Positions 1,867 to 15,752 of a stretch of 64,000 bases of DNA are shown piece by piece. The stretch is from contig JBAZIU010000001.1 in assembly GCA_041651685.1 (NCBI GenBank), positions 308,414-372,413 on the forward strand, given 5' to 3'. This stretch comes from Minisyncoccota bacterium. GTDB taxonomy: Bacteria > Patescibacteriota > Minisyncoccia > Minisyncoccales > Minisyncoccaceae. A program made the position numbers and the translations under genes. Within the stretch, counting starts at the first letter, position 1. Each line of letters opens with the position of its first letter. The notes under the pieces are model-generated. The model had not been told where the DNA came from. It saw only the letters and a program-made list of their open reading frames with translations, and ran no database searches.

Positions 1867-2256
1867 TTACTGGAAAAATTTTAACGTCCATGCTTGGCCT
1901 CCCAAAAACTGGATGAAGCTTTTGACAATGGCCCAGGAGAGATAGATTATTATCAGTCCTATGCCGATGGTCATAATGGCATCTCTTCCCTGTTTGAATT
2001 TCCCCGGGTCTCCGCCTGAGGTCATCATGGTGATCGCGGCCATAACTATTCCGAAGACGGCCAAAACCGGAACAATGTACTGAAGAACATAATTAATTAC
2101 ATTGCCTAATGTCGTGAAAATATCGTTAAAGGTGCAGGCCGGCTGTCCTTCGTTGCCGCATTGGACCAGTCCTTCAGCGGCTAAAACCGAGGAAAAACCC
2201 AAAAACAAAAAAAGCAGTGAAGCAAAGATTAGTCTTTTTGTCTTTGTTCTAAGCAT
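1867..2256 (-). CDS. TrbC/VirB2-like (T4SS-pilin-like) small membrane protein
   Basis: Signal peptide, short Cys-containing ectodomain, then a two-helix hairpin AVFGIVMAAITMMTSGGDPGKFKQGRDAIMTIGIGLIIIYLSWAI, as in the three genes at 39171-40832. Confidence 0.6.
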   Translation of the reverse strand: MLRTKTKRLIFASLLFLFLGFSSVLAAEGLVQCGNEGQPACTFNDIFTTLGNVINYVLQYIVPVLAVFGIVMAAITMMTSGGDPGKFKQGRDAIMTIGIGLIIIYLSWAIVKSFIQFLGGQAWTLKFFQ

Positions 2257-2317
2257 GTTAATTGACTTTGTTATGTGTTTGGAGTATATACTGTTTTTTA
2301 GAAAAAATCAAGTTGCC

Positions 2318-2392
2318 TGGTGCCCCCGGCAAGATTCGAACTCGCACCACTGGTTCCGAAGACCAGCACTCTATCCGTTGAGCTACGGGGGC
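2318..2392 (-). tRNA. tRNA-Arg (anticodon TCG), CCA encoded
   Basis: Acceptor GCCCCCG/CGGGGGC, anticodon stem CTGGT/ACCAG with loop CTTCGGA, T arm GCGAG-TTCGAAT-CTTGC, 3' ACCA. Confidence 0.9.
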
Positions 2393-2395
2393 TCT

Positions 2396-3043
2396 CTACT
2401 TCTTCCTTATCTTCAACCGTATCGGCGGAATGGTATCCTGGTCGAAAATGAGGCGATTTTCCATCAATTCCCTGTATTCGGGATTGTTTGACAGGTCTTT
2501 AATCGGGCTCAATCTTTTGATTAAGACCGGAATTAAGGAAATCAGCATCAATAACCCGGCCATTTCATATCCCTTAAAAGAGAAGGAGAATATGATTCCG
2601 GTCAGGAACGACAAAAGGGTCCCGATTGAAGCAGTCCAGATTATAGTAAATAATAGGCAAGGAATCAAGGAGATGATTAAAACCGTGGGAGAAATAACCA
2701 AGAGTGCTCCGATCAAAGCGGCTAATCCCCTGCCTCCTTTTAATCCCAAAAAGATGGACCAGTTGTGCCCGGCCACGGCCAAGACTCCGCAAAACACTTG
2801 GAACAATTCGGAAAAACCGAAATATCTGGCCAGATAGACGGCAAGAAACCCTTTGCCGACATCAAAGATGAAAGTGAAGATGCCTTGCCACAAACCGACA
2901 TTTTTGAAAACATTGGAACCAGAATTCTTTTTCCAGCCTATTTCCATCAGATTCTTTTTGGTCGTGTATTTGGTAATCAAATATCCGAAAGGAATGGAGC
3001 CTAAAAGATAGGCAAGGATTAAAAGAAGAATGGCTTTAATCAT
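2396..3043 (-). CDS. plsY: Glycerol-3-phosphate acyltransferase PlsY (acyl-phosphate dependent)
   Basis: 215 aa polytopic protein; LLGSIPFGYL, SGSNVFKNVG, AGHNWSIFLGLKGGRGLAA match the PlsY signature blocks. Confidence 0.85.
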   Translation of the reverse strand: MIKAILLLILAYLLGSIPFGYLITKYTTKKNLMEIGWKKNSGSNVFKNVGLWQGIFTFIFDVGKGFLAVYLARYFGFSELFQVFCGVLAVAGHNWSIFLGLKGGRGLAALIGALLVISPTVLIISLIPCLLFTIIWTASIGTLLSFLTGIIFSFSFKGYEMAGLLMLISLIPVLIKRLSPIKDLSNNPEYRELMENRLIFDQDTIPPIRLKIRKK

Positions 3044-3710
3044 TTAAGTATTTCTTATTTTTTATCTTTTCAATTTGATCTAAAACTCTATCCTTGTGAG
3101 CATAGATTATCAGAATAGTTGCAAAAACAGTCGGAAAGAAAAGAGATGGAGCAAAATAATAAATCCATAAAACCGCTACAGCTTCTCCGATCAGTCTTCC
3201 AATTATTTGGTCAGAAACAGCAGCTTTGAATAGTTTGCCAGAAAACTTTCTTCCCATCAAAGCTTCAACGATGATCATAAAGAAAAGAACGATTCCTAAC
3301 CAGCCTAAGAATACTTGCCAGTTTAAGTATAATAATATTCCTAAGAATGTTGCAGCTCCCCTTCCCCCCTTAAATTTAAGAAAGATAGAATAGTTATGTC
3401 CTAAGATTACAAAGAATGTGGCAAGAGTTGTTAGTAGAACGGCGTTTCCAGGAATTAAATTGTTTGCCAAAATTACAGCTAATACACCTTTAGAAGCATC
3501 AAGAAGAAAAACGATAAGAAAGGAAATTATACCCCAGGCTTTTCCTTTTTCATGAGAAACAATTCTTAAAGTATTGAGAGCTCCGGTGTTTTTAGAACCG
3601 AAAGTTCTCATATCTTTATTCAAGAATAATTTAACATATAAAAGAGCAAAAGGAATAGAACCTAAAAGATATGAGATTACAGAAACTAGAATGTGGTTAA
3701 TGTTTAACAT
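3036..3710 (-). CDS. plsY: PlsY paralog (second G3P acyltransferase)
   Basis: 224 aa; LLGSIPFALL, SKNTGALNTLR, LGHNYSIFLKFKGGRGAAT; overlaps the downstream plsY by 8 nt. Confidence 0.8.
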   Translation of the reverse strand: MLNINHILVSVISYLLGSIPFALLYVKLFLNKDMRTFGSKNTGALNTLRIVSHEKGKAWGIISFLIVFLLDASKGVLAVILANNLIPGNAVLLTTLATFFVILGHNYSIFLKFKGGRGAATFLGILLYLNWQVFLGWLGIVLFFMIIVEALMGRKFSGKLFKAAVSDQIIGRLIGEAVAVLWIYYFAPSLFFPTVFATILIIYAHKDRVLDQIEKIKNKKYLND

Positions 3711-3723
3711 AGTTTATTTATTA

Positions 3724-4302
3724 TTATGGACAACATATGCCGTATGTCGTAATAGGCCAAGTTCCCCAAGTAAGCGCTGATCCGACATATTCATGACAAT
3801 ACCACCCCTGTGCGCCTGAAGTTATAACAGAAAGAGGTACTGATGCAGCCATATAGACATTATTGGCTTGACTAGGAACTCCATAACAACCTCCCCCAAC
3901 AATATATGTTGAAGTTGGGCATATAGCTGATGCTGTGCAATGAGTGCCTCCAGCACAACTCGAACTAGCAGTTACTTGAGTACAATTAGCAGCAGAAAAA
4001 GTTCCAGCTTTAGTTGTTTGCACTGTTCCGTCGGGAAACAAGAATCCTCCAGAGGTGGATTGCACCGTTCCTGCAACGCTTAATTTTTGCTGGGGAGAAT
4101 CTGTTCCTATTCCCACCTTATTATCCGAGGTCACGCAAAGTCCCGTAGTGCATTCCATTTCAGACCAAGAGTGTCCATTAGCCGGCTTTATTGTGGAATA
4201 GGCATCGACTATTTCTGACTTTAAAACATTAACATATTGGAATGATGTTGCCAGTATGGTTAATACCAGTATTGAGCAAATGATTGTTAGGTTTTTGTTC
4301 AT
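3724..4302 (-). CDS. Membrane-anchored Cys-rich fibre-like surface protein (shares its N-terminal module with the S74 proteins)
   Basis: N-terminal TM, then NGHSWSEMECTTGLCVTSDNKVGIGTDSPQQKLSVAGTV, paralleling NPGHLWSSMECNSDTLCVDT.NNRLGIGTASP in 20162 and 58076; then FLFPDGTVQTT (tail-fibre-like) and a 10-Cys C-terminal domain. Confidence 0.6.
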   Translation of the reverse strand: MNKNLTIICSILVLTILATSFQYVNVLKSEIVDAYSTIKPANGHSWSEMECTTGLCVTSDNKVGIGTDSPQQKLSVAGTVQSTSGGFLFPDGTVQTTKAGTFSAANCTQVTASSSCAGGTHCTASAICPTSTYIVGGGCYGVPSQANNVYMAASVPLSVITSGAQGWYCHEYVGSALTWGTWPITTYGICCP

Positions 4303-4321
4303 ATGCTTTTATTATAATACA

Positions 4322-5200
4322 TTATGCCTCAGTTGAGCAACAGATAAGGGTTCCCGGACCGACATGGCAGCCGATGGCCATACTGGTGATACTGATAAAC
4401 TCTATTTTGATTTGCGGATACTTTTCTTCAATCAATCCTCTTAATCTCTGGGCCTGTTCCAGATTATCGGCATGCGATATGCCGACTCGGCATCTCTTTC
4501 CTTCGCTCAAGGGCTTCTTGACAACCTCCTCCATTTGCTTAAATAAAGCGTTGGCGGTATCTTGAGCCTGCATTTTAAGATTGGCCGGCTTTACCACGCC
4601 GTCCTTTACCGAAAGAATCGGCCTCATTCCTATTTTTTGCATTTGAGATAAGATTACGGATAAGGCATGATTGATTCTTCCTCCGGCTTCAAGCCATTTG
4701 GGGCTTTCAATCATTCCGAAAAGGAAAGTTTTGGGAAGAAGTGCTTCCACTTCTTTTTTTATTTCTTCCAATGATTTTCCTTCTTCGCTCATTTCGGCAG
4801 CCTTGAGAGCCAAAAGACTTTCACTGGCGTCGGCATTAAAGGAATCGATAACGAGGATTCTTTTTTGTTTTTCCTCGTCAAACATTTTTTGAGCTTGTAT
4901 TGCCGAATTGTATGTTCCCGAGATGGCCGAACTGATGGTTATGCAAATTACGTTTTCAGAATTATTCAGAGCTTCTTCGAAGGCTTTCTTGAACACTCCC
5001 ACTGAAGGTTGAGATGTTTTAGGAGTTGTTTTTATCATTATTCTCTCTGCCTCCCTCATTTTTTCAAAAACATTATTGCCGGAAAGTTTTTCTCCTTCCG
5101 GCCAATCGATTACAAACGGAACAACTACCATTCCGTACTTATCAATCAGTTCTCTTGTGATTGGAGCACTTTCCCCGATGACGATTGTTGATTTTTTCAT
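4322..5200 (-). CDS. DegV family fatty-acid-binding protein (FakB-like)
   Basis: 292 aa; TSQPSVGVFKKAFEE...ICITISSAISGTYNSAIQA is the DegV core motif. Confidence 0.85.
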   Translation of the reverse strand: MKKSTIVIGESAPITRELIDKYGMVVVPFVIDWPEGEKLSGNNVFEKMREAERIMIKTTPKTSQPSVGVFKKAFEEALNNSENVICITISSAISGTYNSAIQAQKMFDEEKQKRILVIDSFNADASESLLALKAAEMSEEGKSLEEIKKEVEALLPKTFLFGMIESPKWLEAGGRINHALSVILSQMQKIGMRPILSVKDGVVKPANLKMQAQDTANALFKQMEEVVKKPLSEGKRCRVGISHADNLEQAQRLRGLIEEKYPQIKIEFISITSMAIGCHVGPGTLICCSTEA

Positions 5201-5210
5201 ATGTTTTTTA

Positions 5211-6092
5211 TTACTCTTCTAATGTTGCACACATTAACGTTCCCGGACCGACATGGGCGCCGATAAACGGCCCGGTCATGCTTATAAAGTCGACTTTGAT
5301 TTTATCTCCGAACCTGTTTAATAAAAGAGACTTCAGTTCGTTCGCTTTTTCTATGTTGTCGGCGTGGGAAATGGCAACCCGGTATTTTTTTCCTTCCTGC
5401 ATAGCTTTTTTGGTAACTTCTTCGAAGTGTTTCAAAAGGGCTTCGGCAATATCCTTGGCATTTATGCTTAAGTTGGCCGGCTTCACTTTCCCGTCTTTCA
5501 TATGCAGTATCGGACGTAATCCGATTTTCTGCATTTGGGCCAAGATAACGGCCAGAGTGTGGCTGATTCTTCCCCCGGCTTCCATCTGATTGGGGTTTTC
5601 GGTCATTCCGAAAAAGTATGTTTTATTAACATAGTTATTAATCGTTTCGACTATTTTTTGTATGTCCTCTCCCCTTTCAGATAGCTCGCAGGCCTTAATC
5701 GCCAAAAGACTTTCCGCCGCATCAATATTGTTTGAATCAATGATGTGAATCCTTTTCTGCATTTCTTCGCTGAACATTTTTCTGGTTTGAATTGCCGCAT
5801 TATATGTTCCCGATATTTTTGAACTGATGGTAATCACAATTGTGTTTTCGCTTTTCGACAGCGCTTCATCGTATGCTTTTTTAAAAGCTCCCATCGGCGG
5901 TTGAGAAGTTTTAGGAGTTGAATTGACTCCTTTCTCAACGGCTTTTCTCATTTTTTGAAAGATATTGTCCCCTTTTAATCCTTCTCCTTCCGGCCAATTA
6001 AGGCTGGGAGTCAAAGCAATTATCCCGTACTTATCAAGAATATCTTTAGTTGTTGAAGCGAAGCTGCAAACGATTACGGTTGCTTTTTGCAT
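5211..6092 (-). CDS. DegV family fatty-acid-binding protein (FakB-like)
   Basis: TSQPPMGAFKKAYDE...ITISSKISGTYNAAIQ. Start trimmed from 6158 to ATG 6092 (MQKATVIV) because the longer ORF overlaps the upstream gene by 60 nt. Confidence 0.8.
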   Translation of the reverse strand: MQKATVIVCSFASTTKDILDKYGIIALTPSLNWPEGEGLKGDNIFQKMRKAVEKGVNSTPKTSQPPMGAFKKAYDEALSKSENTIVITISSKISGTYNAAIQTRKMFSEEMQKRIHIIDSNNIDAAESLLAIKACELSERGEDIQKIVETINNYVNKTYFFGMTENPNQMEAGGRISHTLAVILAQMQKIGLRPILHMKDGKVKPANLSINAKDIAEALLKHFEEVTKKAMQEGKKYRVAISHADNIEKANELKSLLLNRFGDKIKVDFISMTGPFIGAHVGPGTLMCATLEE

Positions 6093-6097
6093 ATATT

Positions 6098-6976
6098 TTA
6101 TTGATTCCAAGAAAGAATTAATGTATCGGGTCCGATATGTCCTCCGACCGGAAAGCAAACCAGATTGATAAAAGAGATCTCGGTGTTTTTTAAGCTCAAG
6201 ACCATTTCTTTAAGTTTGTCCGCCTGTCCGATGCTATCGGCATGGGTAATGGCAACACTTACTTTTTTACCGGCATCTCTAATCTTTTTAGTCATCTTTT
6301 CAAATTCTTCAAAGAGAGCAGTGGGAAGATCCTTAACCCCTCTTTTAATGCCGATAATGGTTAGTTTGCCGTCTTTTATTCCGAAGAGCGGTTTTATATT
6401 CATTTTTTCTGCCTGATTAATTACGGTTGGCATGAATCGCGGGACTCTCCCGCTGGCTTCAACCCATTTCGGACTTTTGTACATTGCAATCAGTTTGAAA
6501 TTAGGCAACTCTTTTTTTAATCTTTCGATTACTTCTTTGATACCAAGCTTTTCTTTGATTAGGGATATTGCCTTTAAGCAAATGAGTCCTTCCGATCCGC
6601 TTCCGTGAGTTGAATCAAAAACATGGACTTTGTTTTGCAGTTCTTGAGCCAGGAATTTTTTGGCCTGCATCGCCGAATTGTATGTTCCGGAGATTTTTGA
6701 AGAAAAAGTGATGCACAAAACCTCTTCAAATTCTTTGAGTTTCTCTTTAAAAGCGGAAAGGAAATCGTTGATTGAAGGCTGGGAGGTTTTGATCAAGCTT
6801 TTCATTCCTCTTCTTTCCCCTTCCCTTACCTTTTCATAGATGTTGCCGGGAATGTTGGCCAATTCCTGAAAATCAAGCTTGAATCTGACAATTCCGACCT
6901 TATTGCTTTCTATTATTTCTTGAGGCAAGTCACAGACTTCGTCGAACACCAATCCTATTTTGTTTTGGTTTTCCAT
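6098..6976 (-). CDS. DegV family fatty-acid-binding protein (FakB-like)
   Basis: TSQPSINDFLSAFKE...CITFSSKISGTYNSAMQA; third tandem paralog. Confidence 0.85.
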   Translation of the reverse strand: MENQNKIGLVFDEVCDLPQEIIESNKVGIVRFKLDFQELANIPGNIYEKVREGERRGMKSLIKTSQPSINDFLSAFKEKLKEFEEVLCITFSSKISGTYNSAMQAKKFLAQELQNKVHVFDSTHGSGSEGLICLKAISLIKEKLGIKEVIERLKKELPNFKLIAMYKSPKWVEASGRVPRFMPTVINQAEKMNIKPLFGIKDGKLTIIGIKRGVKDLPTALFEEFEKMTKKIRDAGKKVSVAITHADSIGQADKLKEMVLSLKNTEISFINLVCFPVGGHIGPDTLILSWNQ

Positions 6977-7007
6977 ATTTTAAAAAGTTATGACTTCTTT
7001 TTTTGAA

Positions 7008-8792
7008 CTATTTGACTATCCAGCCCACCAACAAGCTTTGCGGACAGGCATTGATGCTGGTGACCGGGTCGGTAACATTGATAAAGGAGATGTCGGTCTT
7101 CCTTATCGTCTTCAGTTTTTGCTTTAATCCCTCGGCCATTTCCAGATGGTCTCCGTGACAGATAACCACTCTGATTCTCTTCCCTTCTCGGATGTCTCTT
7201 CGCGACTCTCTTTCTATTTTATTAAACAGGGCCGTGGCGAAATCATTGGTTTTAAAGCTTTCGGTGGCAACTATTTTTCCATGCCTCATTTCGCCCAAAG
7301 CATATCGAACCTCTTCCTTTTTTCTAAACCAGAAAGGAGTATTTTTTTCCTTGTTCCACCAGTCTGATTTTTCGGCGATACAATACAGGTTAGTTTTAAG
7401 AACGGTCATTTCCATTCTTTTCAATATTTCTCTGACCTTTCTTTGTTCGGTTATCATTTCCAGGGCTTCAAGGACTACGATTGATTGGCCGGCACTGACG
7501 TTTTTCGAATCAATGATAAAGACGTGTTCCCTCTCGACATAGTTGAGCATTTCCCTCCCTTTAACAGCCGCTTCGTAGTTTTGGGAAAGCTTGGAAGAAG
7601 AAACGATGCAAAGAATGTCTTCGAATTTTTCCAATTGTTTTTTGAAAGATTCCATGAAAAATTCGGGATGAATCGGCTCTATTTTCGGCTGGGAAACCAC
7701 GCCTTGTTTTTTGGCTTCTTTAATTCTCTGGCAAATATTTTCTCCGACGATATTTTCACCTTCCGGCCAGCTGATTCTCAAAGGAATCACTTCTATTCCG
7801 TAGTGGGAAATTATCTTGGCCGACAGCCCGGCTCTTTCATCGACAACGATTCCGATAGAAACATTCTCAACCGATTTTTCTCCGGTAACTTCTTTGGCCA
7901 TATCCTCGATTCTTAAGCTTTCAATCGTTCCCATTTTTTTGACAATGTCTCTCACCTCATACGGGTCGTCGGTATGGATATGGATTTTAGTCCTATCCCC
8001 CACTTGGATGACATCAAGGCAGTTGCCCAGGTAGTGCAATTTTTCTTTGATTTGTTTTTCCGAATAATCTCCGTCTTCAAGCAAGGCCACTACTTCATAT
8101 CTGTTGGAAAGAATCTGAACGAATCTTCTCGGCCTGTTCATTTCTTCCTTTTCGTATGACTTAATGGTGAACGGCTCGGACTGTTCTTTCAGTGTATCCA
8201 GATATGTTTCCAATATCATTAAAAAGCCCAATCCTCCGGCATCGACTACCCCCGCTTTTTTCAGCACTTCCATTTTGTTGGGGGTATCCAATAACGCAGC
8301 ATTGGCTTTTTCTAAGGCGTGATAGAAGATTTTGACAATGTCTTTTTCTTCGTCCGATTTTTCTTGTATTCCCAAGGCGAAAGCTTGAATGACATCGAGC
8401 ATGGTTCCCTCTTTGGGGTTTTGGATAGAATCTTTGGCTCTTTCATATCCTTTGTTAAAAGCTTCGCCCAGCTTCTTTGCGTCAACCGTCGATTCTTTGC
8501 TGATAACGGGAAGGAAGCCGGCCAAAAATCCCGTATAGATTATGCCGGTATTGCCTTGGGCGAAAGTCAGAGCTCCGTCCAAAGCATCGTTGCCCAGTTC
8601 TTCAATTGAAGAATATTCTTTGTTTTCAACCGCGTCTTTAATTCCCTTAAGTGTTGCGGCCAAGTTGTTTCCCGTGTCCTGGTCAGGTACCGGAAAAACA
8701 TTGATTTTGTTTACCTGCTCTTTATCTCTCTCGATTCTTTCGTAGGAGAAAAGCAGCATTTTCTGTAATTCTTTTTGCGATAGTTGGTCCAT
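7008..8792 (-). CDS. Dak2 (DhaL-like) domain fused to a DegV-like C-terminal domain; FakA/YloV-like fatty acid kinase candidate
   Basis: 594 aa; N-terminal FPVPDQDTGNNLAATLKGI (Dak2 phosphate-binding motif); C-terminal ~270 aa resembles the neighbouring DegV genes (VSQPKIEPIHPEFFMESF...CIVSSSKLSQNYEAA). Confidence 0.7.
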   Translation of the reverse strand: MDQLSQKELQKMLLFSYERIERDKEQVNKINVFPVPDQDTGNNLAATLKGIKDAVENKEYSSIEELGNDALDGALTFAQGNTGIIYTGFLAGFLPVISKESTVDAKKLGEAFNKGYERAKDSIQNPKEGTMLDVIQAFALGIQEKSDEEKDIVKIFYHALEKANAALLDTPNKMEVLKKAGVVDAGGLGFLMILETYLDTLKEQSEPFTIKSYEKEEMNRPRRFVQILSNRYEVVALLEDGDYSEKQIKEKLHYLGNCLDVIQVGDRTKIHIHTDDPYEVRDIVKKMGTIESLRIEDMAKEVTGEKSVENVSIGIVVDERAGLSAKIISHYGIEVIPLRISWPEGENIVGENICQRIKEAKKQGVVSQPKIEPIHPEFFMESFKKQLEKFEDILCIVSSSKLSQNYEAAVKGREMLNYVEREHVFIIDSKNVSAGQSIVVLEALEMITEQRKVREILKRMEMTVLKTNLYCIAEKSDWWNKEKNTPFWFRKKEEVRYALGEMRHGKIVATESFKTNDFATALFNKIERESRRDIREGKRIRVVICHGDHLEMAEGLKQKLKTIRKTDISFINVTDPVTSINACPQSLLVGWIVK

Positions 8793-8828
8793 ATTAAAAA
8801 CAATCTACTGATAATGGTAAATTCTTTC

Positions 8829-9479
8829 TTATTTCACTCTCCTTTCCACGTCTTCTAGTATCTTTTTGGCCAGGTCTTTTCCGCCCAAACCGAAAGAGAT
8901 TCCCAAGGTGATGACTATTATTGCAACAAATCCGATAAAGATGGTTAAAATCAATGTCTGGACAATCTGCAATTGGTAAAGAATGGCCAAGATTGCCAAA
9001 ATCCAGGCGCCCGAAGAGATGATGTCGCCCAAGAAATTGGAATAGACCATTTTTTCTTTATCCAAGCTGCCGACAATGATTTTCTTGCTGAAGTCGGCAA
9101 TAAAAACGGTAAAAATGAAGATAACGATTGAAATGAAGATATTGGGATAGTACCCGATTATGTCCCCCACCAATCCGCTGATGGTTTTTAAGTTCAAGAC
9201 ATCGAGGGAGATGACCAAGAAAAGCAGGAAGAAATAGACTTCAACGATGATTCCGAAGAATTTGGGAACGTTCAATTTGGCATCAAATCTGTCAAAGAAA
9301 CTTTCCCAGCCCAAGGCCTTGAGCATCTGGTTTAGTCTCAGTCTGTTTAAAAAATTGATAACAACCGCCCTGATTCTTCCGGCAATAATCCAACCGAAGA
9401 AAAGAATGATCAGAGCCCAAAAAAGATCGGGAACGCGGACCAATATCTCTTGATAAAACGCTTCAAAAATGTTTTGCAT
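8829..9479 (-). CDS. Polytopic membrane protein (conserved-TM-helix repeat type, MscS-N-terminal-like)
   Basis: 216 aa, 4-5 predicted TM helices, repeated helix-loop pattern; family assignment is weak. Confidence 0.4.
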   Translation of the reverse strand: MQNIFEAFYQEILVRVPDLFWALIILFFGWIIAGRIRAVVINFLNRLRLNQMLKALGWESFFDRFDAKLNVPKFFGIIVEVYFFLLFLVISLDVLNLKTISGLVGDIIGYYPNIFISIVIFIFTVFIADFSKKIIVGSLDKEKMVYSNFLGDIISSGAWILAILAILYQLQIVQTLILTIFIGFVAIIVITLGISFGLGGKDLAKKILEDVERRVK

Positions 9480-9518
9480 AGTTATTATTGGTTATTTTTA
9501 AACCTTTTTAATCTTATA

Positions 9519-10082
9519 TTACCACTTGGCTTTGTGCAACCCTAAGTTATACCCAACTCTATTGCATAAAATATGTATCAAAAATGTCAAGACAAAGAGA
9601 GTTATCCAGAATTCCAAAGAAAGGCGAACTAACGGCTGGATAAAGATAAATGCTCCGATGACGTAATTGGTTTGGTCAAAAGGGATGAAAGCAACTCCGG
9701 GCCTTAATCGCAATCTTCTTTTAAGAAAGGCGAAACCGATATCCCCTGCTATTATTCCGATTGATAACAGTAACCCCAAGGCCCAGCCGTTTATGCTATT
9801 AATGTCCAGCTCGATGGTTTGGTAGAACGAAAGATTATAATAGTTATGAATAAAGATGAATAACGGAGTCAAAAAAGTGCAAAGGATGATTTCACAAATC
9901 ACCCCCCTCCAAGTTTTGTGGCTGCCGAAAACAGGCATTCCGTTTATTGTCCTTCCCCCGTCAATAGGCTTATTCAAACCATTCAAAATATTAAAAGTGT
10001 TGGCTAAAGGAGGAGAAGCGTTGGCTAACAGCGCTGGCATGAAGAAATATATAACCGATAGTATATATAGGTAGTTAATCAC
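9519..10082 (-). CDS. CarS/DUF46-like CTP-dependent CDP-alcohol (CDP-archaeol synthase family) membrane enzyme
   Basis: 187 aa, GTG start; NKPIDGGRTINGMPVFGSHKTWRG, GDIGFAFLKRRLRLRPG, PFDQTNY and the C-terminal YNLGLHKAKW follow the CarS block order as I recall it. Confidence 0.6.
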   Translation of the reverse strand: MINYLYILSVIYFFMPALLANASPPLANTFNILNGLNKPIDGGRTINGMPVFGSHKTWRGVICEIILCTFLTPLFIFIHNYYNLSFYQTIELDINSINGWALGLLLSIGIIAGDIGFAFLKRRLRLRPGVAFIPFDQTNYVIGAFIFIQPLVRLSLEFWITLFVLTFLIHILCNRVGYNLGLHKAKW

Positions 10083-10436
10083 AAAATTTATTGAATGATA
10101 TATTCATTAATTAAATTATATAATAAAAGCCGAATATGTTCAACCGTTTTTATGATTTCCACCCCCTTGGTTTTTAGGATGTCTTTAATATATTATAAGA
10201 ATATAAATAGGTCCGAGTGTCAAGTGGTGGTGTGAATACGATCAGCATCAATTGACCAGATGATATATAGATATAGTTGTTTCGAAAAATTCGGCCAAGG
10301 CGGCATTCTCGAAACACCACTTCCCTATCCATACCCCTTAGTCTTTTGCAATCAAAAGGAATAAGATTAAGAAGTAATCTAATAATAAAGATTGCTAACA
10401 AGATATGTTAGTTCTATGTATCTAGACTAATAATAG

Positions 10437-10507
10437 TCGGGATGCCGGGATTTGAACCCGGATTACAGACTCCCGAAGCCTGCATAATGCCATTATATGA
10501 CATCCCG
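10437..10507 (-). tRNA. tRNA-Pro (anticodon CGG), compact 71 nt
   Basis: Acceptor CGGGATG/CATCCCG, anticodon stem CAGGC/GTCTG with loop TTCGGGA, 4-nt variable loop, T arm CCGGG-TTCAAAT-CCCGG, AT-only D stem. Confidence 0.8.
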
Positions 10508-10512
10508 ATATG

Positions 10513-10528
10513 TGTTTCACGTGAAACA
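10513..10528. promoter_or_regulatory. parS-consensus palindrome TGTTTCACGTGAAACA (site 1)
   Basis: Perfect 16-bp palindrome identical to the ParB/Spo0J parS consensus; begins 5 nt from the tRNA-Pro 5' end. Confidence 0.75.
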
Positions 10529-10539
10529 TTTACTAAACG

Positions 10540-10555
10540 TGTTTCACGCGAAACA
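10540..10555. promoter_or_regulatory. parS-like palindrome, one central mismatch (TGTTTCACGCGAAACA, site 2)
   Basis: 15/16 match to site 1. Confidence 0.6.
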
Positions 10556-10570
10556 TTTTAGAGGTTTTGA

Positions 10571-10664
10571 TTCTGGACACGATTCTGGACATTCTGGACA
10601 CGATTCTGGACAAACTGTGGATATTCTGGACAAATTGGGGACAATCTGGACACGATTCTGGACA
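10571..10664 (+). repeat. Iteron-like array: 6 perfect TTCTGGACA direct repeats plus 2 variants and one TGTGGATAT box
   Basis: Perfect copies start at 10571, 10583, 10592, 10604, 10624, 10656; variants TTGGGGACA (10635) and ATCTGGACA (10644); TGTGGATAT at 10616-10624 (8/9 to the DnaA box TGTGGATAA). Spacing 9-20 nt, all in the same orientation. Confidence 0.8.
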
Positions 10665-10668
10665 CGTG

Positions 10669-10739
10669 TGGACCTGATAAGAATCGGACTTATATTACTA
10701 CCGTGTGAAGGTAGCGTTCTACCATTGAACTACAGGTCC
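10669..10739 (-). tRNA. tRNA-Val (anticodon CAC), compact 71 nt
   Basis: Acceptor GGACCTG/CAGGTCC, D arm GTTC-AATGGTA-GAAC, anticodon stem CTACC/GGTAG with loop TTCACAC, 4-nt variable loop, AT-rich T arm ATAAG-TCCGATT-CTTAT. Confidence 0.8.
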
Positions 10740-10744
10740 GGGAA

Positions 10745-10760
10745 TGTTTCACGTGAAACA
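10745..10760. promoter_or_regulatory. parS-consensus palindrome (site 3)
   Basis: Perfect TGTTTCACGTGAAACA; begins 5 nt from the tRNA-Val 5' end; a half-site (ATATTTCAC) follows near 10767. Confidence 0.75.
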
Positions 10761-10850
10761 TTTAAGATATTTCACAGCGCATACTCTTCCCTACCTTGCT
10801 TCAGACTATGCGATTATATCTCTTTTTAAAATAATAATCAATCGTATGTG

Positions 10851-10921
10851 TGGACCCGATGAGAATTGAACTCATATCTCTGCAATGCGAATGCAGTATT
10901 CTACCGTTGGACTACGGGCCC
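10851..10921 (-). tRNA. tRNA-Ala (anticodon CGC), compact 71 nt
   Basis: Acceptor GGGCCCG/CGGGTCC with the G3:U70 alanine identity pair, anticodon stem CTGCA/TGCAG with loop TTCGCAT, T arm ATGAG-TTCAATT-CTCAT. Confidence 0.8.
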
Positions 10922-10926
10922 GAAGA

Positions 10927-10942
10927 TGTTTCACGTGAAACA
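10927..10942. promoter_or_regulatory. parS-consensus palindrome (site 4)
   Basis: Perfect TGTTTCACGTGAAACA; begins 5 nt from the tRNA-Ala 5' end. Confidence 0.75.
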
Positions 10943-10961
10943 TCTGGTAGGACATCCAAAA

Positions 10962-10977
10962 TGTTTCACGTGAAACA
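10962..10977. promoter_or_regulatory. parS-consensus palindrome (site 5)
   Basis: Perfect TGTTTCACGTGAAACA. Confidence 0.75.
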
Positions 10978-10988
10978 TTTGGAAGGAG

Positions 10989-11004
10989 TGTTTCACGTGA
11001 AACA
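10989..11004. promoter_or_regulatory. parS-consensus palindrome (site 6)
   Basis: Perfect TGTTTCACGTGAAACA, ending 1 nt before the cca stop codon (11006-11008). Confidence 0.75.
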
Positions 11005-11005
11005 C

Positions 11006-12499
11006 TTAGCTGACCCAGTACTTTTCTTTAGTCATTTGATCTTCCTTAATAATAACATTATTTCTCTCTTTCTTGGCTTTTTCAGCTAAATCTTCTAATT
11101 CCGCTTCACTCAGGCCACCCAATTCTAATAGTTTCTTCTTTAAATAGGTTTTAGTGTTGTTTTTAGGGTCCCTTAAGACATCTTCAAATAATACATCTAA
11201 TATCATGCCTACCTTGCGAGAAGGTTTAATATCCAATGTTTTCATTACCTCTTCGCCATTGATTTTAAGCATTTTGACGGAAATAGGGTCTTTAGACACC
11301 TTTTCAATCATATATTTGAAGTGCCTTAGTTTGTATGGTTCGGCTTTGGGGCACCCAGAGCCGATCCTGTCAGCCATCCTTAATTCCAGCAAATCTTCCA
11401 TGTTTTCGGCTCCGACGTTTCTGACCAGTCTTCGAACCGAAGCTTCTCCAACTTCGTCAACATTGTAGTAGAAGAGGTGATATCTGACTAAATTGACTAT
11501 CTTGTCCACATCTTTTTTGGGAAATCTCAATCGATTGAGTATTTTTTCGGCCATTTGAGCCCCAACCACCTCATGGTTATAGAAAGTGGCATCATTGCCT
11601 TCGCCTCTTTTAGTCTTCGGTTTTCCTATATCATGGAGCAGGGCAGCCATGCGAACTTCGAATTTATAAGCTTTATGACTTGCGAAATTGAGGCATTCTA
11701 AATTATGCTTGTAGCAATCATAGATATGATGCTTATTTTGGCCGACCTCATACCCTTCTTCCAATTCCGGTATTATATAGGCTAATAGCCCTTTATTTCG
11801 CAATGATTCTATTCCGGCAGCCGCATTTTCGCTATTAATGATCTTAATCAATTCATCCCGGATTCTTTCTTGGGATATTTTTTTCAATAATGGGGCATTA
11901 TCCTTAATAGCTTGCTTGGTTTTCTCTTCAATTATCCAATCATTACCCAGAGTAGTCTTTAATCTGACCGCCCTCATCATTCGCAGAGCATCTTCTTTAA
12001 ATCTTTCGTTCGGATCGCCCACAGCCCTGAGGATATGGTTCTCAAGGTCGTTTTTTCCATCAAATAAATCGATAATCTGCATCTCCGAGCCGTTTTTTAA
12101 GGATATTGCTATCGAATTGACGGTAAAATCACGCCTTTTCAAGTCTTCTTCGATGGTTTTTGACCAGGAAACCTTGTCCGGATGGCGACTATCAGAGTAA
12201 GTTGCTTCGTTTCTATAGGTAGTTATCTCAATCACGTCGAACTCGTCTTTCTTGATAGGAAAAGCGACTCCGACCGTTCCGAAGTCATTTTCATAGAAAG
12301 TTTTGATTTTCATCTTTTCAAAAATCTTTTGGGTTTCTTCGGGCAGGGCATTGGTGGCCACATCCCAGTCGGCCGGGATGGCGTCCCTCAAGAAATCTCT
12401 GGTGCATCCTCCGACAATATATGCCTCAAATCCGCTTTTTTGCAAAGCGTCTATACAGAATAAGACATTCTTGGGAATTGATTTCAAATCAATTTTCAT
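11006..12499 (-). CDS. cca: CCA-adding tRNA nucleotidyltransferase with HD domain
   Basis: 497 aa; AYIVGGCTRDFLRDAIPADWDVAT (PolyA_pol head), RMMRAVRL, LLHDIGKP (HD). Consistent with most tRNAs here lacking an encoded CCA. Confidence 0.9.
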   Translation of the reverse strand: MKIDLKSIPKNVLFCIDALQKSGFEAYIVGGCTRDFLRDAIPADWDVATNALPEETQKIFEKMKIKTFYENDFGTVGVAFPIKKDEFDVIEITTYRNEATYSDSRHPDKVSWSKTIEEDLKRRDFTVNSIAISLKNGSEMQIIDLFDGKNDLENHILRAVGDPNERFKEDALRMMRAVRLKTTLGNDWIIEEKTKQAIKDNAPLLKKISQERIRDELIKIINSENAAAGIESLRNKGLLAYIIPELEEGYEVGQNKHHIYDCYKHNLECLNFASHKAYKFEVRMAALLHDIGKPKTKRGEGNDATFYNHEVVGAQMAEKILNRLRFPKKDVDKIVNLVRYHLFYYNVDEVGEASVRRLVRNVGAENMEDLLELRMADRIGSGCPKAEPYKLRHFKYMIEKVSKDPISVKMLKINGEEVMKTLDIKPSRKVGMILDVLFEDVLRDPKNNTKTYLKKKLLELGGLSEAELEDLAEKAKKERNNVIIKEDQMTKEKYWVS

Positions 12500-12527
12500 G
12501 TTTCTATAATATAATATATTTCCTGAC

Positions 12528-12555
12528 TTGACAACTGGTTTTCTTTTGCTAAAAT
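12528..12555 (+). promoter_or_regulatory. Sigma70-type promoter candidate for nusA (TTGACA-16-TGcTAAAAT)
   Basis: TTGACA at 12528-12533, extended -10 TGCTAAAAT ending at 12555. Confidence 0.5.
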
Positions 12556-12583
12556 GGAATTAAGAATAAGCAGTTTTTTGATT

Positions 12584-12606
12584 GGTCGGATTGGTCCGAC
12601 CTTTTT
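12584..12606 (+). terminator. Intrinsic-terminator-like hairpin in the nusA leader
   Basis: GGTCGGA-ttgg-TCCGACC followed by TTTTT, located between the promoter candidate and the nusA ATG (12644). Confidence 0.5.
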
Positions 12607-12643
12607 AATAACAATTAAAGATAAATAATAAATAAAAAATAAT

Positions 12644-13903
12644 ATGGATTTTCAATCATTTTTATCAGCCATGACTCAGATTTCCGACGAGAAAGGACTG
12701 TCTCCGGAAAGAGTTTTAGACACGGTTGAGCATGCTTTGGCTTCGGCATACAAGAAAGAATACGGCAAGAAAGGTCAGGTTATCAGAGCCAAGATAAATC
12801 CCAAGACCGGCAAGGTTGATTTTTGGAGAGTCAGAGGCGTTGTTGATGACACCATGGTCTATATCCCGGAAAAAGTTGAAGTAGAAGGCGAAGAGGGGAC
12901 AGAACCAACAGAAGAAATCAAGGTTAAGGTTAAAGACAGTTACCGACCGACTGAAGCCGAATTAAACACTGAAGAAATTGAAAAAGAAGGGGAGGCTGCC
13001 GAGAGAAGAGTCAGATACAACCCGGAAAAGCATATGTTGATAGAAGAGGTTGAAGAAGAGGGATTGAAATTGAAAGCAGGCGAAGAGGAAGTCGTTACTT
13101 TGGAAAGCAGGGATGATTTTGGCAGAATTGCCGCACAAACAGCCAAACAAGTGGTTCTTCAGAAGATCAGGGAGGCTGAAAAAGAAACCGTTTTGGCCGA
13201 ATACAAGTCAAAAGAAGGAGAAATCGTCTCGGGAATCGTTCAAAGAATCGAAGGTTCCAACATTTACTTCGATATCGGCAAATCATTGGGAGTTTTGCCC
13301 AAAGAAGAGCAAATCAGAGGGGAGTTTTATAAGGAAGGACAGAGATTAAAATTGTATGTTTTACGTGTTGATACAACACCCAAGGGACCGATTATTCTCT
13401 TGTCCAGAAGCTATCCCAAGCTTATCTCCAAGCTATTCGAATTGGAAGTTCCGGAAATATCCGGCGAACAGGTAGAAATCAAAGCCATTGCCAGAGAGGC
13501 CGGGTCAAGAACCAAGATTGCCGTTGAATCATCAGCCGAAGGGGTTGATCCGATTGGAGCCATGGTCGGGCAGAGAGGAGTTAGGGTGGCCGCGGTCATG
13601 TCCGAACTGGGAGGAGAAAAGATTGATATTATCGAATATCATCCCGAACCGACCAAGTTCATTGCCAATGCTTTGTCTCCGGCTAAAATCATCGATGTTC
13701 TACCTCAAACCAAAAATACCGCCATCGTTGTTGTTCCCAAGGACCAGCTGTCTTTAGCCATCGGCAAAGACGGACAGAACGTCAGATTGGCTGCTAAATT
13801 AACCGGCTGGAAGATTGATGTTAAGAGCGAAGACCAGATTAATGAAATCAAAAAAGAGGAAGAGGAGTTGCATGTCGACGAAGAAGAATCAACTGAAAAA
13901 TAA
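12644..13903 (+). CDS. nusA: Transcription termination/antitermination factor NusA (with an acidic insertion)
   Basis: 419 aa; [23 protein letters not shown]1 and two KH blocks ([47 protein letters not shown]). Confidence 0.95.
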
Positions 13904-13906
13904 TCT

Positions 13907-15154
13907 ATGAAATACGAAATAAAAGAAATATCGGAAATTAAAAGAAAAGCCGAGGTTGAGGTAACCGCCGAAGAGTTCGACAATTACTACAATCAGGCTC
14001 TTTCCGAAATAACCAAGGGTGTGGAATTGCCCGGTTTCCGCAAAGGCAAAGCACCGGAAAAAATGGTGGAGGAAAAGATGAATCCGGCTTCTGTTTTGTC
14101 CGAAGCGGCTGAAGCGGCCATCAGAGATAATTGGATTAAGATTCTCAAGGAAACCAAGGCGGAAGCCGTGTCTCAACCGGAAGTGGAAATAGTTAAAATC
14201 GCTAAAGGAAATCCTTTTACTTTCAATGCCAATTTCGAAGTTTTGCCTGTAATCAAATTGCCCGATTTGAAAGCAATCGCCAAGAGTATCAAAAAGGAAG
14301 AAATCAAGGTTACCGACAAAGAAGTTGAAGATACTTTAAACTGGCTTCAGCAATCAAGAGCCAAGTTTTCTAACAAAGAAAGCGCTGCTGAAAAAACAGA
14401 CTTGGTTGAGTTTTCTTTTAATTGTTCGACCATCAAAGACGACCCGATAAAGAAAGACAGAATTGTTTTGGGCAAAGGCCATTATATCAGCGGAATGGAA
14501 GACGCTTTAATCGGCATGAAGAGGGGAGAGGAAAAGGATTTTGAAACCGAGAATCCCCAAGACAAAAAAGAAAAGATGACCATCCACATTAAAATTGATT
14601 CGGTCCAGAAAATGGAGTTGCCGGAAATCAATGATGAGTGGGTTAAAACCCTTGGCAATATTACCAGTGTCGAAGGATTAAAAGCCGATATTAAAAAAGG
14701 AATAATTCAGGAAAAAGAAATTGCCGAAAAGCAGAAACAGAGAGAGCAAGCTATAAAAGAAATATTGAAAGATGTCAAGTTTGAGGTTCCTCATATTTTA
14801 GTTGAAAGAGAGGCTGAAATGATGGTTGATAATGTAAAATCAAGGGTACAAACAGAAATCAATATGTCCTTTGAAGAATACCTTAATCAAATCAAGAAAA
14901 CCGAGGAAGATGTGAAGAAGGAATTCGAGAAGATTGCCGAAGAAAAGGTGAGGGGATTCTTAGTCTTGCATCAAATAGAGAAAGATGAGAAAATAGAGAT
15001 AACAGACAAGGAAATTGATGATAAGATAGAAGAAATAATTAGTCAGTATCCGGACAAGGAAAGCGCCAGAAAGAATATGGATATCGAGCATGTGAAAATG
15101 CACATTGAAGACGATATGAAAAGAGAAAAAATATTCCAAGTCCTCGGATGTTAA
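13907..15154 (+). CDS. tig: Trigger factor
   Basis: 415 aa; N-terminal [10 protein letters not shown] ribosome-binding motif, FKBP-like middle region; upstream of clpP as usual. Confidence 0.9.
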
Positions 15155-15167
15155 ATAATATAAAAAT

Positions 15168-15752
15168 ATGCTGATTCCAACAGTTATTGAAAAAACACAA
15201 GCGGGGGAGAGGGCATACGATATTTATTCCCGCCTTTTGAAAGACAGAATTATTTTTTTGTCGGGCGTAGTTGATGATCATATCGCCAATACCATTGTCG
15301 CCCAGATGTTGTTCTTGGCTTCAAAGGACCCCAACAAGGATATCCAATTATATATCAACAGTCCCGGAGGTTCGGTTACCGCCGGTCTGGCTATCTACGA
15401 TACGATGCAATACATCAAACCCGATGTTTCCACGGTTTCAATCGGAATGTCGGCTTCGATGGGAGCAATGATTCTGGCGGCCGGAGCCAAAGGAAAAAGA
15501 TATGCTTTGCCCAACTCGGAAATCCTTCTCCATCAGGTGATGGGAGGAGCGAGAGGACAGGCTTCGGAAATAGAAATCACGGCCAAGCAGATATTAAGGA
15601 TAAAAGAAAACATCAACAAAATTTTATCCAAGCATACTAATCAGCCTTTAGCAAAAATAGCTAAAGACACAGATAGAGATTTCTATTTAACCGCCGACGA
15701 GGCAAAAGAATACGGAGTGATTGACGAAGTTATCTATCCTAAAAAAAACTAG
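15168..15752 (+). CDS. clpP: ATP-dependent Clp protease proteolytic subunit
   Basis: 194 aa; [41 protein letters not shown] (Ser-His-Asp triad context). Confidence 0.95.

What the first reader, a model, noticed from the sequence alone, without database searches (positions are those of the whole stretch)
10083..12643. Complete gene-strand switch next to the parS/iteron region: candidate origin or centromere neighbourhood
All 13 protein genes and 5 tRNAs from position 1 to 12499 are on the minus strand. All 11 protein genes and 2 tRNAs from 12644 to 25956 are on the plus strand. Divergent co-orientation of this kind is what flanks a replication origin. The switch point (12500-12643) lies about 1.5 kb from the parS array and iterons. 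A 355-bp gene-free, very AT-rich spacer (10083-10436) sits on the other side and could serve as an unwinding element. If this is oriC, it would be one without an adjacent dnaA/dnaN.
Basis: inference. Interest (0 to 1): 0.6.

Follow-up and report, generated by a model that had tools for sequence, protein, structure and literature searches.

The report
Gene-strand switch at centromere, not origin
In this tiny CPR (Paceibacterota) bacterium the whole-chromosome flip in gene direction lies next to the chromosome's only parS centromere cluster, but the evidence places the replication origin about 44 kb away at dnaA, so plain GC skew and gene orientation would mislocate the origin in this lineage.

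Summary
Window 12500-12643 is the global coding-strand switch of the 434-kb contig and also the raw cumulative GC-skew minimum. It lies 1.5 kb from the genome's only parS cluster.

It is most likely not oriC. dnaN-dnaA, flanked divergently by rnpA-yidC-jag and carrying about 40-fold enriched DnaA boxes in AT-rich spacers, lies 44 kb away. Raw skew here is half coding-strand effect, and the cumulative curve is a plateau between dnaA and parS. Third-codon-position composition separates the two effects. On that measure, fork direction flips at dnaA in five of five genomes (two genera). All 20 genome-by-quartile bins of the intervening zone read dnaA→parS, and both gene orientations agree.

The 13 minus-strand genes of window 1-12.5 kb are therefore head-on genes. 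They form the far end of an ancient, syntenic 30-50-kb head-on zone between oriC and parS. The switch spacer itself is an ordinary divergent promoter region (cca | nusA-tig-clpP).

One point is unresolved. Leading/lagging asymmetry inside the zone is only about a quarter to a third of normal. A minority initiation site near the parS/iteron locus is therefore not excluded (about 12%).

The parts
1..12499 (-). Block of 13 minus-strand protein genes and 5 minus-strand tRNAs. It is the parS-proximal end of a ~44-kb zone (C1:277-321 kb) whose genes are mostly head-on to forks leaving dnaA-oriC.
   Evidence: GC3/AT3 skew of these genes is +0.121/-0.135. Lagging genes of the right replichore give +0.175/-0.169 and leading genes of the left replichore give -0.065/+0.049. 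The fork-direction statistic is positive in the 310-320 kb bin.
10083..10436 (.). 354-bp spacer between the CarS-like gene and tRNA-Pro. It is moderately AT-rich, contains promoter-like sites and is not conserved.
   Evidence: 69.2% AT against an intergenic median of 64.5%. Promoter-like hexamers at 10095-10143. No Rfam family. Absent in G006, where plsY follows tRNA-Pro.
10436..10921 (-). tRNA-Pro(cgg), tRNA-Val(cac) and tRNA-Ala(cgc), interleaved with the parS sites.
   Evidence: ARAGORN and Rfam tRNA matches. Same order in G006.
10513..11004 (.). parS centromere cluster: five perfect TGTTTCACGTGAAACA sites and one with a single mismatch. These are the only parS sites in the genome.
   Evidence: Genome-wide scan. 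Clusters of 4-6 sites in all 9 congeners and in some other genera. ParB and ParA at C1:194.3-195.9 kb.
10571..10673 (+). Head-to-tail array of about 10 T(C/G)TGGACA units at alternating 12/9-bp spacing, embedded in the parS cluster.
   Evidence: Conserved almost base for base in G006. Lies inside the parS cluster in all congeners and G015, with a second array elsewhere and none at dnaA.
11006..12499 (-). CCA-adding enzyme / poly(A) polymerase-family gene with an HD domain. It is the last minus-strand gene.
   Evidence: Pfam PolyA_pol 4.8e-33, PolyA_pol_RNAbd and HD.
12500..12643 (.). 144-bp, 75.7% AT divergent promoter spacer, the strand-switch point. It includes a terminator-like hairpin in the nusA leader (12584-12601).
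   Evidence: TTGACA-16-TAAAAT with extended -10 on the + strand (12528-12555). TTGTCA-17-TATTAT on the - strand (12534-12506). Hairpin followed by a T-run. No DnaA boxes.
12644..15752 (+). nusA, trigger factor and clpP, the first plus-strand genes of a 16-gene co-directional run.
   Evidence: Pfam. Run length. nusA is adjacent to parS also in G012, G015 and G018.

Best explanation
The switch at window 12500-12643 is the point where the chromosome's coding-strand polarity flips. Physically it is an ordinary divergent promoter spacer between a CCA-adding-enzyme gene and nusA-tig-clpP. It sits 1.5 kb from the chromosome's single ParB-loading centromere (six parS sites interleaved with three tRNAs and an iteron array).

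It is not the present replication origin. oriC lies about 44 kb to the left, at the dnaN-dnaA / rnpA-yidC-jag locus (C1:274.1-279.6 kb), in the AT-rich, DnaA-box-bearing spacers flanking dnaA. Forks leaving that origin cross the intervening ~44 kb, including window 1-12.5 kb, against the direction of about two thirds to three quarters of its genes.

In this genome coding-strand bias and replication bias contribute about equally to raw GC skew. They cancel in this head-on zone, so the cumulative curve is flat from dnaA to parS and turns upward only where genes become co-directional. That places the raw minimum at the switch.

Shown: gene layout, parS uniqueness, dnaA locus features, third-position polarity flip at dnaA, and conservation across genomes.

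Inferred: (1) DnaA really initiates at the dnaA flanks. (2) The head-on zone is a relic of an ancient rearrangement fixed before this order diversified, either inversion of the ori-proximal segment that carried parS or relocation of the dnaN-dnaA-oriC-rnpA-yidC-jag cassette away from the cca|nusA junction.
For: (1) dnaA (Bac_DnaA 1.4e-67, plus DnaA_N and DnaA_C) and dnaN are adjacent at C1:274108-276825. rnpA-yidC-jag diverge from dnaA.

(2) There are three DnaA boxes (<=1 mismatch) in the 228-bp, 73% AT dnaA-dnaN spacer and one upstream of dnaA. The genome background is about 0.33 per kb. Window 9500-13000 has only three boxes in 3.5 kb, two of them in coding DNA. G006 has two perfect TTATCCACA boxes in its dnaA-dnaN spacer.

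(3) Regression gives replication and coding-strand coefficients for GC skew of 0.088 and 0.090. The combined codon-class change point is at C1:274 kb, and 321 kb is worse by about 50 log-likelihood units. In closed G006 the change point is at 232 kb (dnaA), and parS is worse by 38 units.

(4) Model-free check: the window's minus-strand genes have GC3/AT3 skew typical of lagging genes of the right replichore.

(5) In the pooled third-position fork-direction scan, the sign flips at dnaA in G000, G002, G006, G008 and G015. All 20 zone bins read dnaA->parS. Plus- and minus-strand genes give the same sign, which excludes a simple gene-class artefact.

(6) The layout is conserved. parS lies 22-52 kb from dnaA in 9 genomes and nusA lies 33-48 kb from dnaA in G011, G014 and G022. 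The zone is collinear, with the same relative gene orientations, between G000 and G006.

(7) The switch spacer carries back-to-back sigma-70-like promoters.
Against: The leading/lagging contrast inside the zone is only about 27% of that elsewhere. On a lagging(0)-to-leading(1) scale, co-directional genes score 0.38-0.82 and head-on genes 0.28-0.39. This persists with core-gene-only references. At four-fold sites, full dnaA polarity (f=1) is excluded in 3 of 5 genomes.

All 5 tRNAs in the zone are head-on under this model.

DnaA boxes beside dnaA could serve autoregulation alone, as in E. coli, where oriC lies ~42 kb from dnaA (established knowledge).

Replichore symmetry does not favour dnaA over parS (G006 305/350 kb against 347/308 kb; G000 about 306/403 kb against 351/358 kb, using the imprecise terminus estimates).

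Confidence: 0.72

Rival explanations
1. Two initiation sites. dnaA-oriC is the major origin, but a minority of initiations (roughly a third, if the attenuation is read literally) start at or near the parS/iteron locus beside the strand switch. The 44-kb zone would then be replicated in both directions over evolutionary time.
For: Both orientation classes in the zone are attenuated about equally (co ~0.6, ho ~0.33) in five genomes. This fits a mixture with p~0.3-0.36. It is not removed by core-only references. Amplitude returns to full within ~10 kb beyond parS. The iteron array has helical phasing (12/9 bp) and includes DnaA-box-like units (TGTGGATAT, TGTGGAC, TGGGGACA), some of which recur in the dnaA flanks.
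Against: The major iteron unit TCTGGACA departs from the DnaA box at a conserved position. The same array occurs a second time upstream of an ECF sigma gene, far from any skew switch. There is no conserved AT-rich unwinding element. An expression-level confound could produce the same attenuation and could not be tested: the highly expressed genes retained head-on in the zone would look more 'leading-like' than the reference lagging genes. No bacterium with two alternately used chromosomal origins is established (own knowledge).
Confidence: 0.12
2. One reading: the strand switch or adjacent parS/iteron region is the sole oriC, displaced from dnaA as in E. coli. The dnaA-flanking boxes would serve only autoregulation.
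For: The raw cumulative GC-skew minimum and the global coding-strand minimum both fall here, and likewise in G002, G006, G008 and G015. tRNAs and most genes of the zone would then be co-directional. E. coli gives a precedent for oriC ~42 kb from dnaA (own knowledge). With the terminus at about C2:30 kb, G000's replichores would be 351/358 kb.
Against: The third-position polarity of the zone has the wrong sign in 20 of 20 genome-by-quartile bins and in both orientation classes. f=0 is excluded in all five genomes at four-fold sites, with lower CI bounds of 0.28-0.60. The change-point penalty is 38-50 log units. DnaA-box density is at background. The proposed unwinding spacer is not conserved.
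Confidence: 0.04
3. The origin is at dnaA, but the position of the coding-strand switch at parS is maintained by selection and is not a frozen accident. Gene orientation would be organised around the ParB-loading site, for example so that transcription runs with ParB sliding or with a loop extruder loaded at parS.
For: The coincidence of the coding-strand switch with parS/nusA is seen in at least two genera, and nusA-parS adjacency in two more families, despite saturated synonymous divergence. The head-on zone has persisted in genomes that otherwise keep roughly 85-90% of genes co-directional.
Against: No SMC hinge domain is detectable in G000, so the best-known parS-loaded motor may be missing. 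Shared ancestry alone explains the conservation. In model bacteria, highly expressed genes are reported to be oriented with replication (own knowledge).
Confidence: 0.1

Closest known systems
Classical dnaA-linked oriC of Gram-positive-type bacteria (B. subtilis, Mycobacterium, Streptomyces: rnpA-rpmH / dnaA / dnaN with DnaA boxes in the dnaA flanks)
   Same: The dnaN-dnaA locus 44 kb from the finding has this layout: rnpA-yidC-jag divergent from dnaA, and AT-rich spacers with TTATCCACA-type boxes. The replication-specific skew flips there.
   Different: The coding-strand bias does not flip there. About 70% of the next 30-50 kb is transcribed towards the origin. The finding's own coordinates lack these features.
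Chromosomal ParABS centromeres (parS TGTTNCACGTGAAACA, Spo0J/ParB) in the origin-proximal domain
   Same: An exact consensus 16-mer and multiple sites within ~6% of the genome length from oriC, with ParA and ParB encoded. Origin-proximal but not origin-adjacent parS is the norm (Livny et al. 2007, own knowledge; PMC4091711 states that parS sites lie 'in close proximity to ori').
   Different: All sites are packed into 0.5 kb, interleaved with three tRNA genes and a phased iteron array. parAB is 124 kb away. The cluster marks the coding-strand switch.
E. coli-type oriC displaced ~42 kb from dnaA
   Same: The distance is similar (own knowledge).
   Different: In E. coli the skew switch coincides with oriC. 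Here the replication-specific skew stays with dnaA and only the coding-strand component moves.
Origin calling in metagenome-assembled genomes from the cumulative GC-skew inflection with 'a small repeat array' (Chen et al. 2020, PMC7111523)
   Same: Applied here, that rule selects exactly this locus: the raw skew minimum plus the parS/iteron repeats.
   Different: The codon-position analysis indicates that the rule is off by 30-50 kb in this lineage.

Membership tests
DnaA-dependent chromosomal origin (oriC), tested at the finding's coordinates | Cluster of DnaA boxes (TTATCCACA-like) | tested here: not met
   There are three <=1-mismatch boxes in window 9500-13000, two of them inside genes, which is background density. 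The dnaA flanks have 4 in 393 bp. The iteron units (TCTGGACA) are only box-like.
DnaA-dependent chromosomal origin (oriC), tested at the finding's coordinates | AT-rich DNA-unwinding element next to the boxes, conserved in relatives | tested here: not met
   The spacer at 10083-10436 is 69% AT against an intergenic median of 64.5% and is absent in G006. The 144-bp switch spacer is 76% AT but is explained by two promoters.
DnaA-dependent chromosomal origin (oriC), tested at the finding's coordinates | Switch of replication-associated strand composition | tested here: not met
   Raw GC skew switches here. The replication-specific component switches at dnaA instead. Only the amplitude steps up here, not the sign.
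DnaA-dependent chromosomal origin (oriC), tested at the finding's coordinates | Marker-frequency (coverage) peak / demonstrated initiation | not testable with these tools
The organism is uncultured.
Chromosomal ParABS centromere | 16-bp palindrome matching TGTTNCACGTGAAACA, non-random in the genome | tested here: met
   Five perfect sites and one 1-mismatch site, all within 492 bp, and none elsewhere in 709 kb at <=1 mismatch. Reversed-pattern controls gave 0.
Chromosomal ParABS centromere | Cognate ParB (ParB_N) and ParA encoded | tested here: met
   ParB_N 2.2e-33 at C1:194.8 kb. The adjacent 253-aa gene begins with a deviant Walker-A motif (KGGVGKT), read from the sequence. It was not scanned against Pfam.
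Chromosomal ParABS centromere | Origin-proximal location | tested here: met
   43 kb (6% of the genome) from dnaA. The distance is 22-52 kb in eight relatives.
Chromosomal ParABS centromere | ParB binding / CTP-dependent loading at these sites | not testable with these tools
   Needs ChIP or in-vitro assays.
Divergent promoter region (operon boundary) | Back-to-back promoter consensus sites upstream of divergently oriented genes | tested here: met
   11/12 match with extended -10 for nusA and 10/12 for the cca gene. These are consensus matches only. No transcript data.

The most novel reading that the evidence does not exclude
In this order of Paceibacterota the chromosome has two distinct polarity axes. 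The replication axis runs from dnaA to a terminus about 55-70 kb beyond the coding-strand 'terminus'. The coding-strand axis is anchored at the parS centromere. The weak strand asymmetry of the 30-50-kb zone between dnaA and parS arises because the parS/iteron locus acts as a second, minority initiation site, or as one boundary of a broad initiation zone. That would make it a natural bacterial chromosome with alternative origins.
Probability: 0.12. Interest if true: 0.85.

Novelty: new variant of a known kind. Interest (0 to 1): 0.45.

Why it matters
(1) Practical. Origins of CPR genomes assembled from metagenomes are commonly set at the cumulative-GC-skew inflection 'with a small repeat array' (PMC7111523). 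In this lineage that rule selects the centromere and not oriC, an error of 30-50 kb. It would carry over into genome start coordinates and into replication-rate estimates that fit coverage from the origin.

(2) Conceptual. This is a long-lived block of mostly head-on genes, including tRNAs, directly beside the origin. It occurs in genomes that otherwise keep roughly 85-90% of genes co-directional. That is a natural test case for how strong selection against head-on transcription really is in slow-growing, ultra-small bacteria.

(3) The unexplained attenuation of strand asymmetry between dnaA and parS, reproduced in five genomes, leaves open a testable possibility of alternative initiation sites.

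Tried and rejected
(a) Raw cumulative GC skew as the arbiter: rejected. Coding-strand and replication terms are equal in size, and the curve is a plateau between dnaA and parS.

(b) All-codon-class regression with a free zone polarity. It gave f=0.53-0.66, but it is sensitive to mis-specification of the large coding-strand term at codon positions 1 and 2. It was superseded by third-position and four-fold-site analyses stratified by orientation.

(c) Mid-zone origin or converging forks from two simultaneously firing origins: rejected, because there is no sign change within the zone in the pooled profile.

(d) Repeated local inversions as the cause of the attenuation: rejected. The zone backbone is collinear, with the same orientations, in G000 and G006.

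(e) Core-versus-accessory composition confound: tested, and it does not remove the attenuation.

(f) Spacer 10083-10436 as a hidden RNA gene: no Rfam match. As a decayed plsY: tblastn found no remnant there.

(g) dif-site search to fix the terminus independently: no match to the E. coli or B. subtilis dif consensus at <=7 mismatches. One conserved 51-bp intergenic element with a GTAAT-N-ATTAC core was seen but is too weak to use.

(h) Outgroup synteny to polarise 'cassette jump' against 'zone inversion': uninformative, because nusA/parS and dnaA are 30-50 kb apart in every family where both lie on one contig.

(j) rRNA orientation: my simple motif search found no rRNA markers, and this was not pursued.
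Full report
CONTEXT. The window is C1:308414-372413 of a 709-kb, 15-contig, 40% GC genome that is 99.5% complete. Window coordinate = C1 coordinate minus 308413.

- Thirteen ORFs and five tRNAs lie on the minus strand up to window 12499. Eleven ORFs and two tRNAs lie on the plus strand from 12644 to 25956.
- Pfam confirms the flanking genes. To the left are a Dak2-DegV (FakA-like) gene, an MS-channel gene, a CarS-like gene and a CCA-adding/poly(A)-polymerase-HD enzyme. To the right are NusA, trigger factor, ClpP and a DUF2341 giant protein.
- I made simple codon-usage-scored gene calls for the whole genome (92% coding on C1). The strand bias is very strong, and C1 has 45 divergent boundaries.
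- The cumulative coding-strand curve nevertheless reaches its global minimum exactly after the gene that ends at window 12499. Its maximum is at C1:42.5 kb.
- The raw cumulative GC skew is also lowest in the bin ending at C1:320 kb.
- The claim of a 'very AT-rich' spacer is overstated. It is 69% AT against an intergenic median of 64.5%.

2. WHAT SURROUNDS IT.
- All parS sites of the genome lie at window 10513-11004: five perfect TGTTTCACGTGAAACA and one with one mismatch. They are interleaved with tRNA-Pro, tRNA-Val and tRNA-Ala and with an array of about ten T(C/G)TGGACA units at alternating 12/9-bp spacing.
- ParB (ParB_N 2.2e-33) and an adjacent ParA-like gene lie at C1:194.3-195.9 kb.
- The 144-bp switch spacer has back-to-back promoter-like sites: TTGACA-16-TAAAAT with extended -10 towards nusA, and TTGTCA-17-TATTAT towards the cca gene. 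It also has a terminator-like hairpin in the nusA leader.
- No Rfam family other than the tRNAs matches the region.

3. WHERE dnaA IS.
- The single dnaA (all three DnaA domains) and dnaN lie at C1:274108-276825 on the minus strand, 44 kb left of the switch.
- rnpA, yidC and jag diverge from dnaA. This is the classical origin synteny.
- The 228-bp dnaA-dnaN spacer is 73% AT and holds TGTGGATAA, TGTGGACAA and TTTTCCACA. The 165-bp spacer upstream of dnaA holds another TGTGGACAA next to TGTGGAAAG.
- That is about 40 times the genome-wide density of boxes with <=1 mismatch (234 in 709 kb). The switch region is at background.
- In congener G006 the dnaA-dnaN spacer carries two perfect TTATCCACA boxes. 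DnaA specificity is therefore canonical in this genus.

4. SEPARATING REPLICATION SKEW FROM CODING-STRAND SKEW.
- Per-gene skew was regressed on replichore side and gene strand, trained on unambiguous regions. The coefficients for GC skew are equal (0.088 replication, 0.090 coding strand).
- In a block of head-on genes the two terms cancel. This explains why the cumulative curve is flat from 270 to 320 kb.
- Combining four codon-position classes, the single change point is at C1:274 kb. A change point at 321 kb is worse by about 50 log units.
- Without any model, the 12 minus-strand genes of the window have GC3/AT3 skew of +0.121/-0.135. Lagging genes of the right replichore give +0.175/-0.169. 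Leading genes of the left replichore give -0.065/+0.049.

5. INDEPENDENT REPLICATES.
- parS clusters exist in all nine congeners and in some other genera. Where parS and dnaA share a contig they are 22-52 kb apart.
- I fetched the single-contig congener G006 (655,401 bp, 32.7% GC) in full.
- G006 has the same layout. The raw skew minimum and coding-strand switch are at parS (187 kb). A mixed zone follows, dnaA is at 230 kb, and the raw maximum is at 470 kb. Its change point is at 232 kb, and the parS position is worse by 38 units.
- Partial genomes G002, G008 (same genus), G015 (another genus) and G020 (another family) show the same arrangement.
- A fork-direction statistic was built from coding-strand third-position composition, using leading and lagging references taken from the flanks.
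- On this statistic the sign flips at dnaA in all five genomes analysed, and it is dnaA->parS in all 20 genome-by-quartile bins of the zone.
- In the whole-contig scans of G006 and G000, plus- and minus-strand genes of the zone give the same sign. A simple 'odd gene class' artefact would not do that.
- The zone is collinear, with identical relative orientations, between G000 and G006. The exception is a G000-specific island with IS30-like genes at C1:283-294 kb.
- nusA stays 33-48 kb from dnaA in three further genera or families, and is adjacent to parS in G012 and G018. The architecture therefore predates the diversification of the order.

6. THE TERMINUS SIDE.
- In closed G006 the fork signal stays rightward to about 525-550 kb. 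That is 55-80 kb past the coding-strand switch at 470 kb.
- Synteny shows that G000's C1 start continues into C2. In G000 the sign flips near C2:30 kb, about 70 kb beyond the coding switch at C1:42.5 kb, and C1:1-60 kb is near zero.
- The coding-strand axis and the replication axis are thus rotated relative to each other at both ends, in the same direction.
- A relocation of the origin cassette would produce this pattern, because the fork-meeting point follows the origin. An inversion at the origin side plus an independent one at the terminus side is an alternative.
- Outgroups could not polarise this, and the terminus estimates are imprecise.

7. WHAT REMAINS UNEXPLAINED.
- Inside the zone the leading/lagging contrast is weak. 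On a scale from lagging (0) to leading (1), co-directional genes score 0.63, 0.66, 0.38, 0.54 and 0.82. Head-on genes score 0.33, 0.37, 0.30, 0.39 and 0.28.
- The order (co > ho) is right for a dnaA origin in all five genomes, but the contrast is only about 27% of the expected value.
- Four-fold sites give f(dnaA-like) of 0.49-0.89. f=0 is excluded in all five genomes and f=1 in three.
- Restricting the references to genes conserved between G000 and G006 does not remove the effect. Inversions do not explain it either, and there is no internal sign change.
- Two candidates remain. One is an expression-linked confound: transcription-associated asymmetry is parallel to the leading-strand signature, and the zone may hold unusually well-expressed head-on genes. 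The other is a real minority of initiations on the parS/iteron side.
- The iterons weaken the second option somewhat. Their major unit departs from the DnaA box. An almost identical array sits upstream of an ECF sigma-factor gene on C8 and at 71 kb in G006. Arrays lie inside parS clusters in all congeners and G015 but never at dnaA.
- Units such as TGGGGACAA and TGTGGACAA do recur in the dnaA flanks, so DnaA binding to the arrays is not excluded.

8. COMPARISON WITH KNOWN SYSTEMS.
- The dnaA locus fits the classical dnaA-linked oriC.
- The finding's coordinates fail three tested oriC criteria: box cluster, conserved unwinding element and replication-skew switch.
- The parS cluster meets the three sequence-level criteria of a chromosomal ParABS centromere that I could test.
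- An offset of tens of kb between parS and oriC is ordinary (own knowledge; PMC4091711 describes parS sites as close to ori).
- Two features are unusual. The coding-strand switch, and hence the raw skew minimum, coincides with the centromere and not with the origin. A mostly head-on block, tRNAs included, has been stably retained next to oriC.
- No SMC hinge domain was detected. This weakens an SMC-loading rationale for a parS-centred gene orientation.
- Chen et al. 2020 (PMC7111523) describe the common practice of placing the origin at the skew inflection with a small repeat array. Here that practice would select the centromere.

VERDICT. The 'centromere neighbourhood' reading is supported. 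The 'oriC here' reading is not supported as the sole or main origin (about 4%), and a minority initiation role is not excluded (about 12%). My confidence in the main explanation is 0.72. The decisive tests, read-depth profiling and polymorphism strand asymmetry, could not be run.

Noticed in passing
G000 contig C8:6655-7140 (locus L002); counterpart in G006 at 70.9-71.4 kb: A second array of about 10 T(C/G)TGGACA units, including three TGTGGACAA. It lies between a 256-aa gene with a weak bAvd-like/HTH-like match and an ECF-type sigma-70 gene, and further units lie inside the sigma gene's coding sequence. Most congeners have such a second array.
   Followed up: partly
window 10436-11004: The parS sites are interleaved with three tRNA genes in a fixed order (CCA gene, 2-3 parS, tRNA-Ala, parS, tRNA-Val, iterons, parS, tRNA-Pro). 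This order is conserved between genomes of 33% and 40% GC. ParB loading would therefore occur within a highly transcribed tRNA cluster.
   Followed up: partly
whole genome G000: No SMC hinge domain (PF06470) was detected in a 99.5% complete genome that keeps ParA, ParB and parS. MukB/MksB-type substitutes were not searched.
   Followed up: no
C1:283000-294000 (outside the window, left of it): A G000-specific island inside the dnaA-parS zone, absent from G006. It has two IS30-like transposase genes (C1:288813-289802 and 292270-293316) and duplicated ~180-aa genes (C1:285699-286253 and 293391-293930). T4SS-like genes flank it.
   Followed up: no
G006 505-565 kb; G000 C2:24050-24110, C2:30889-30968, C1:29510-29540, C1:428379-428454: A repeated ~60-bp element (TTTGCAGGGGCG.TGGGACG...GGAACCTTTTT...) occurs many times near the inferred terminus region. 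It resembles the 3' end of a tRNA, so it may be remnants of integration sites.
   Followed up: no
C1:64378-64427; G006 448493-448543: A 51-bp intergenic element, 96% conserved between the two genomes, with a GTAAT-GTAT-ATTAC palindromic core that loosely resembles a dif site. It lies where the strong fork-direction signal begins to fade in both genomes.
   Followed up: partly
window 10083-10436 compared with G006 187652-188251: In G006 a plsY gene directly follows tRNA-Pro, where G000 has the 354-bp spacer. G000's closest plsY (78% identity) is at C1:76244-76837, and more distant paralogues are at window ~2700-3700.
   Followed up: partly
window 24238-24311 and 24269-25411: tRNA-Ala(ggc) overlaps the first 43 bases of the longest ORF call 24269-25411. 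The true start codon of that gene is probably further downstream.
   Followed up: no
G006 whole genome; G000 C1: tRNA genes are not strictly co-oriented with replication in these genomes. All three tRNAs in G006's right replichore (318-448 kb) are head-on, and so are all 12 tRNAs in the two 'displaced' zones.
   Followed up: partly
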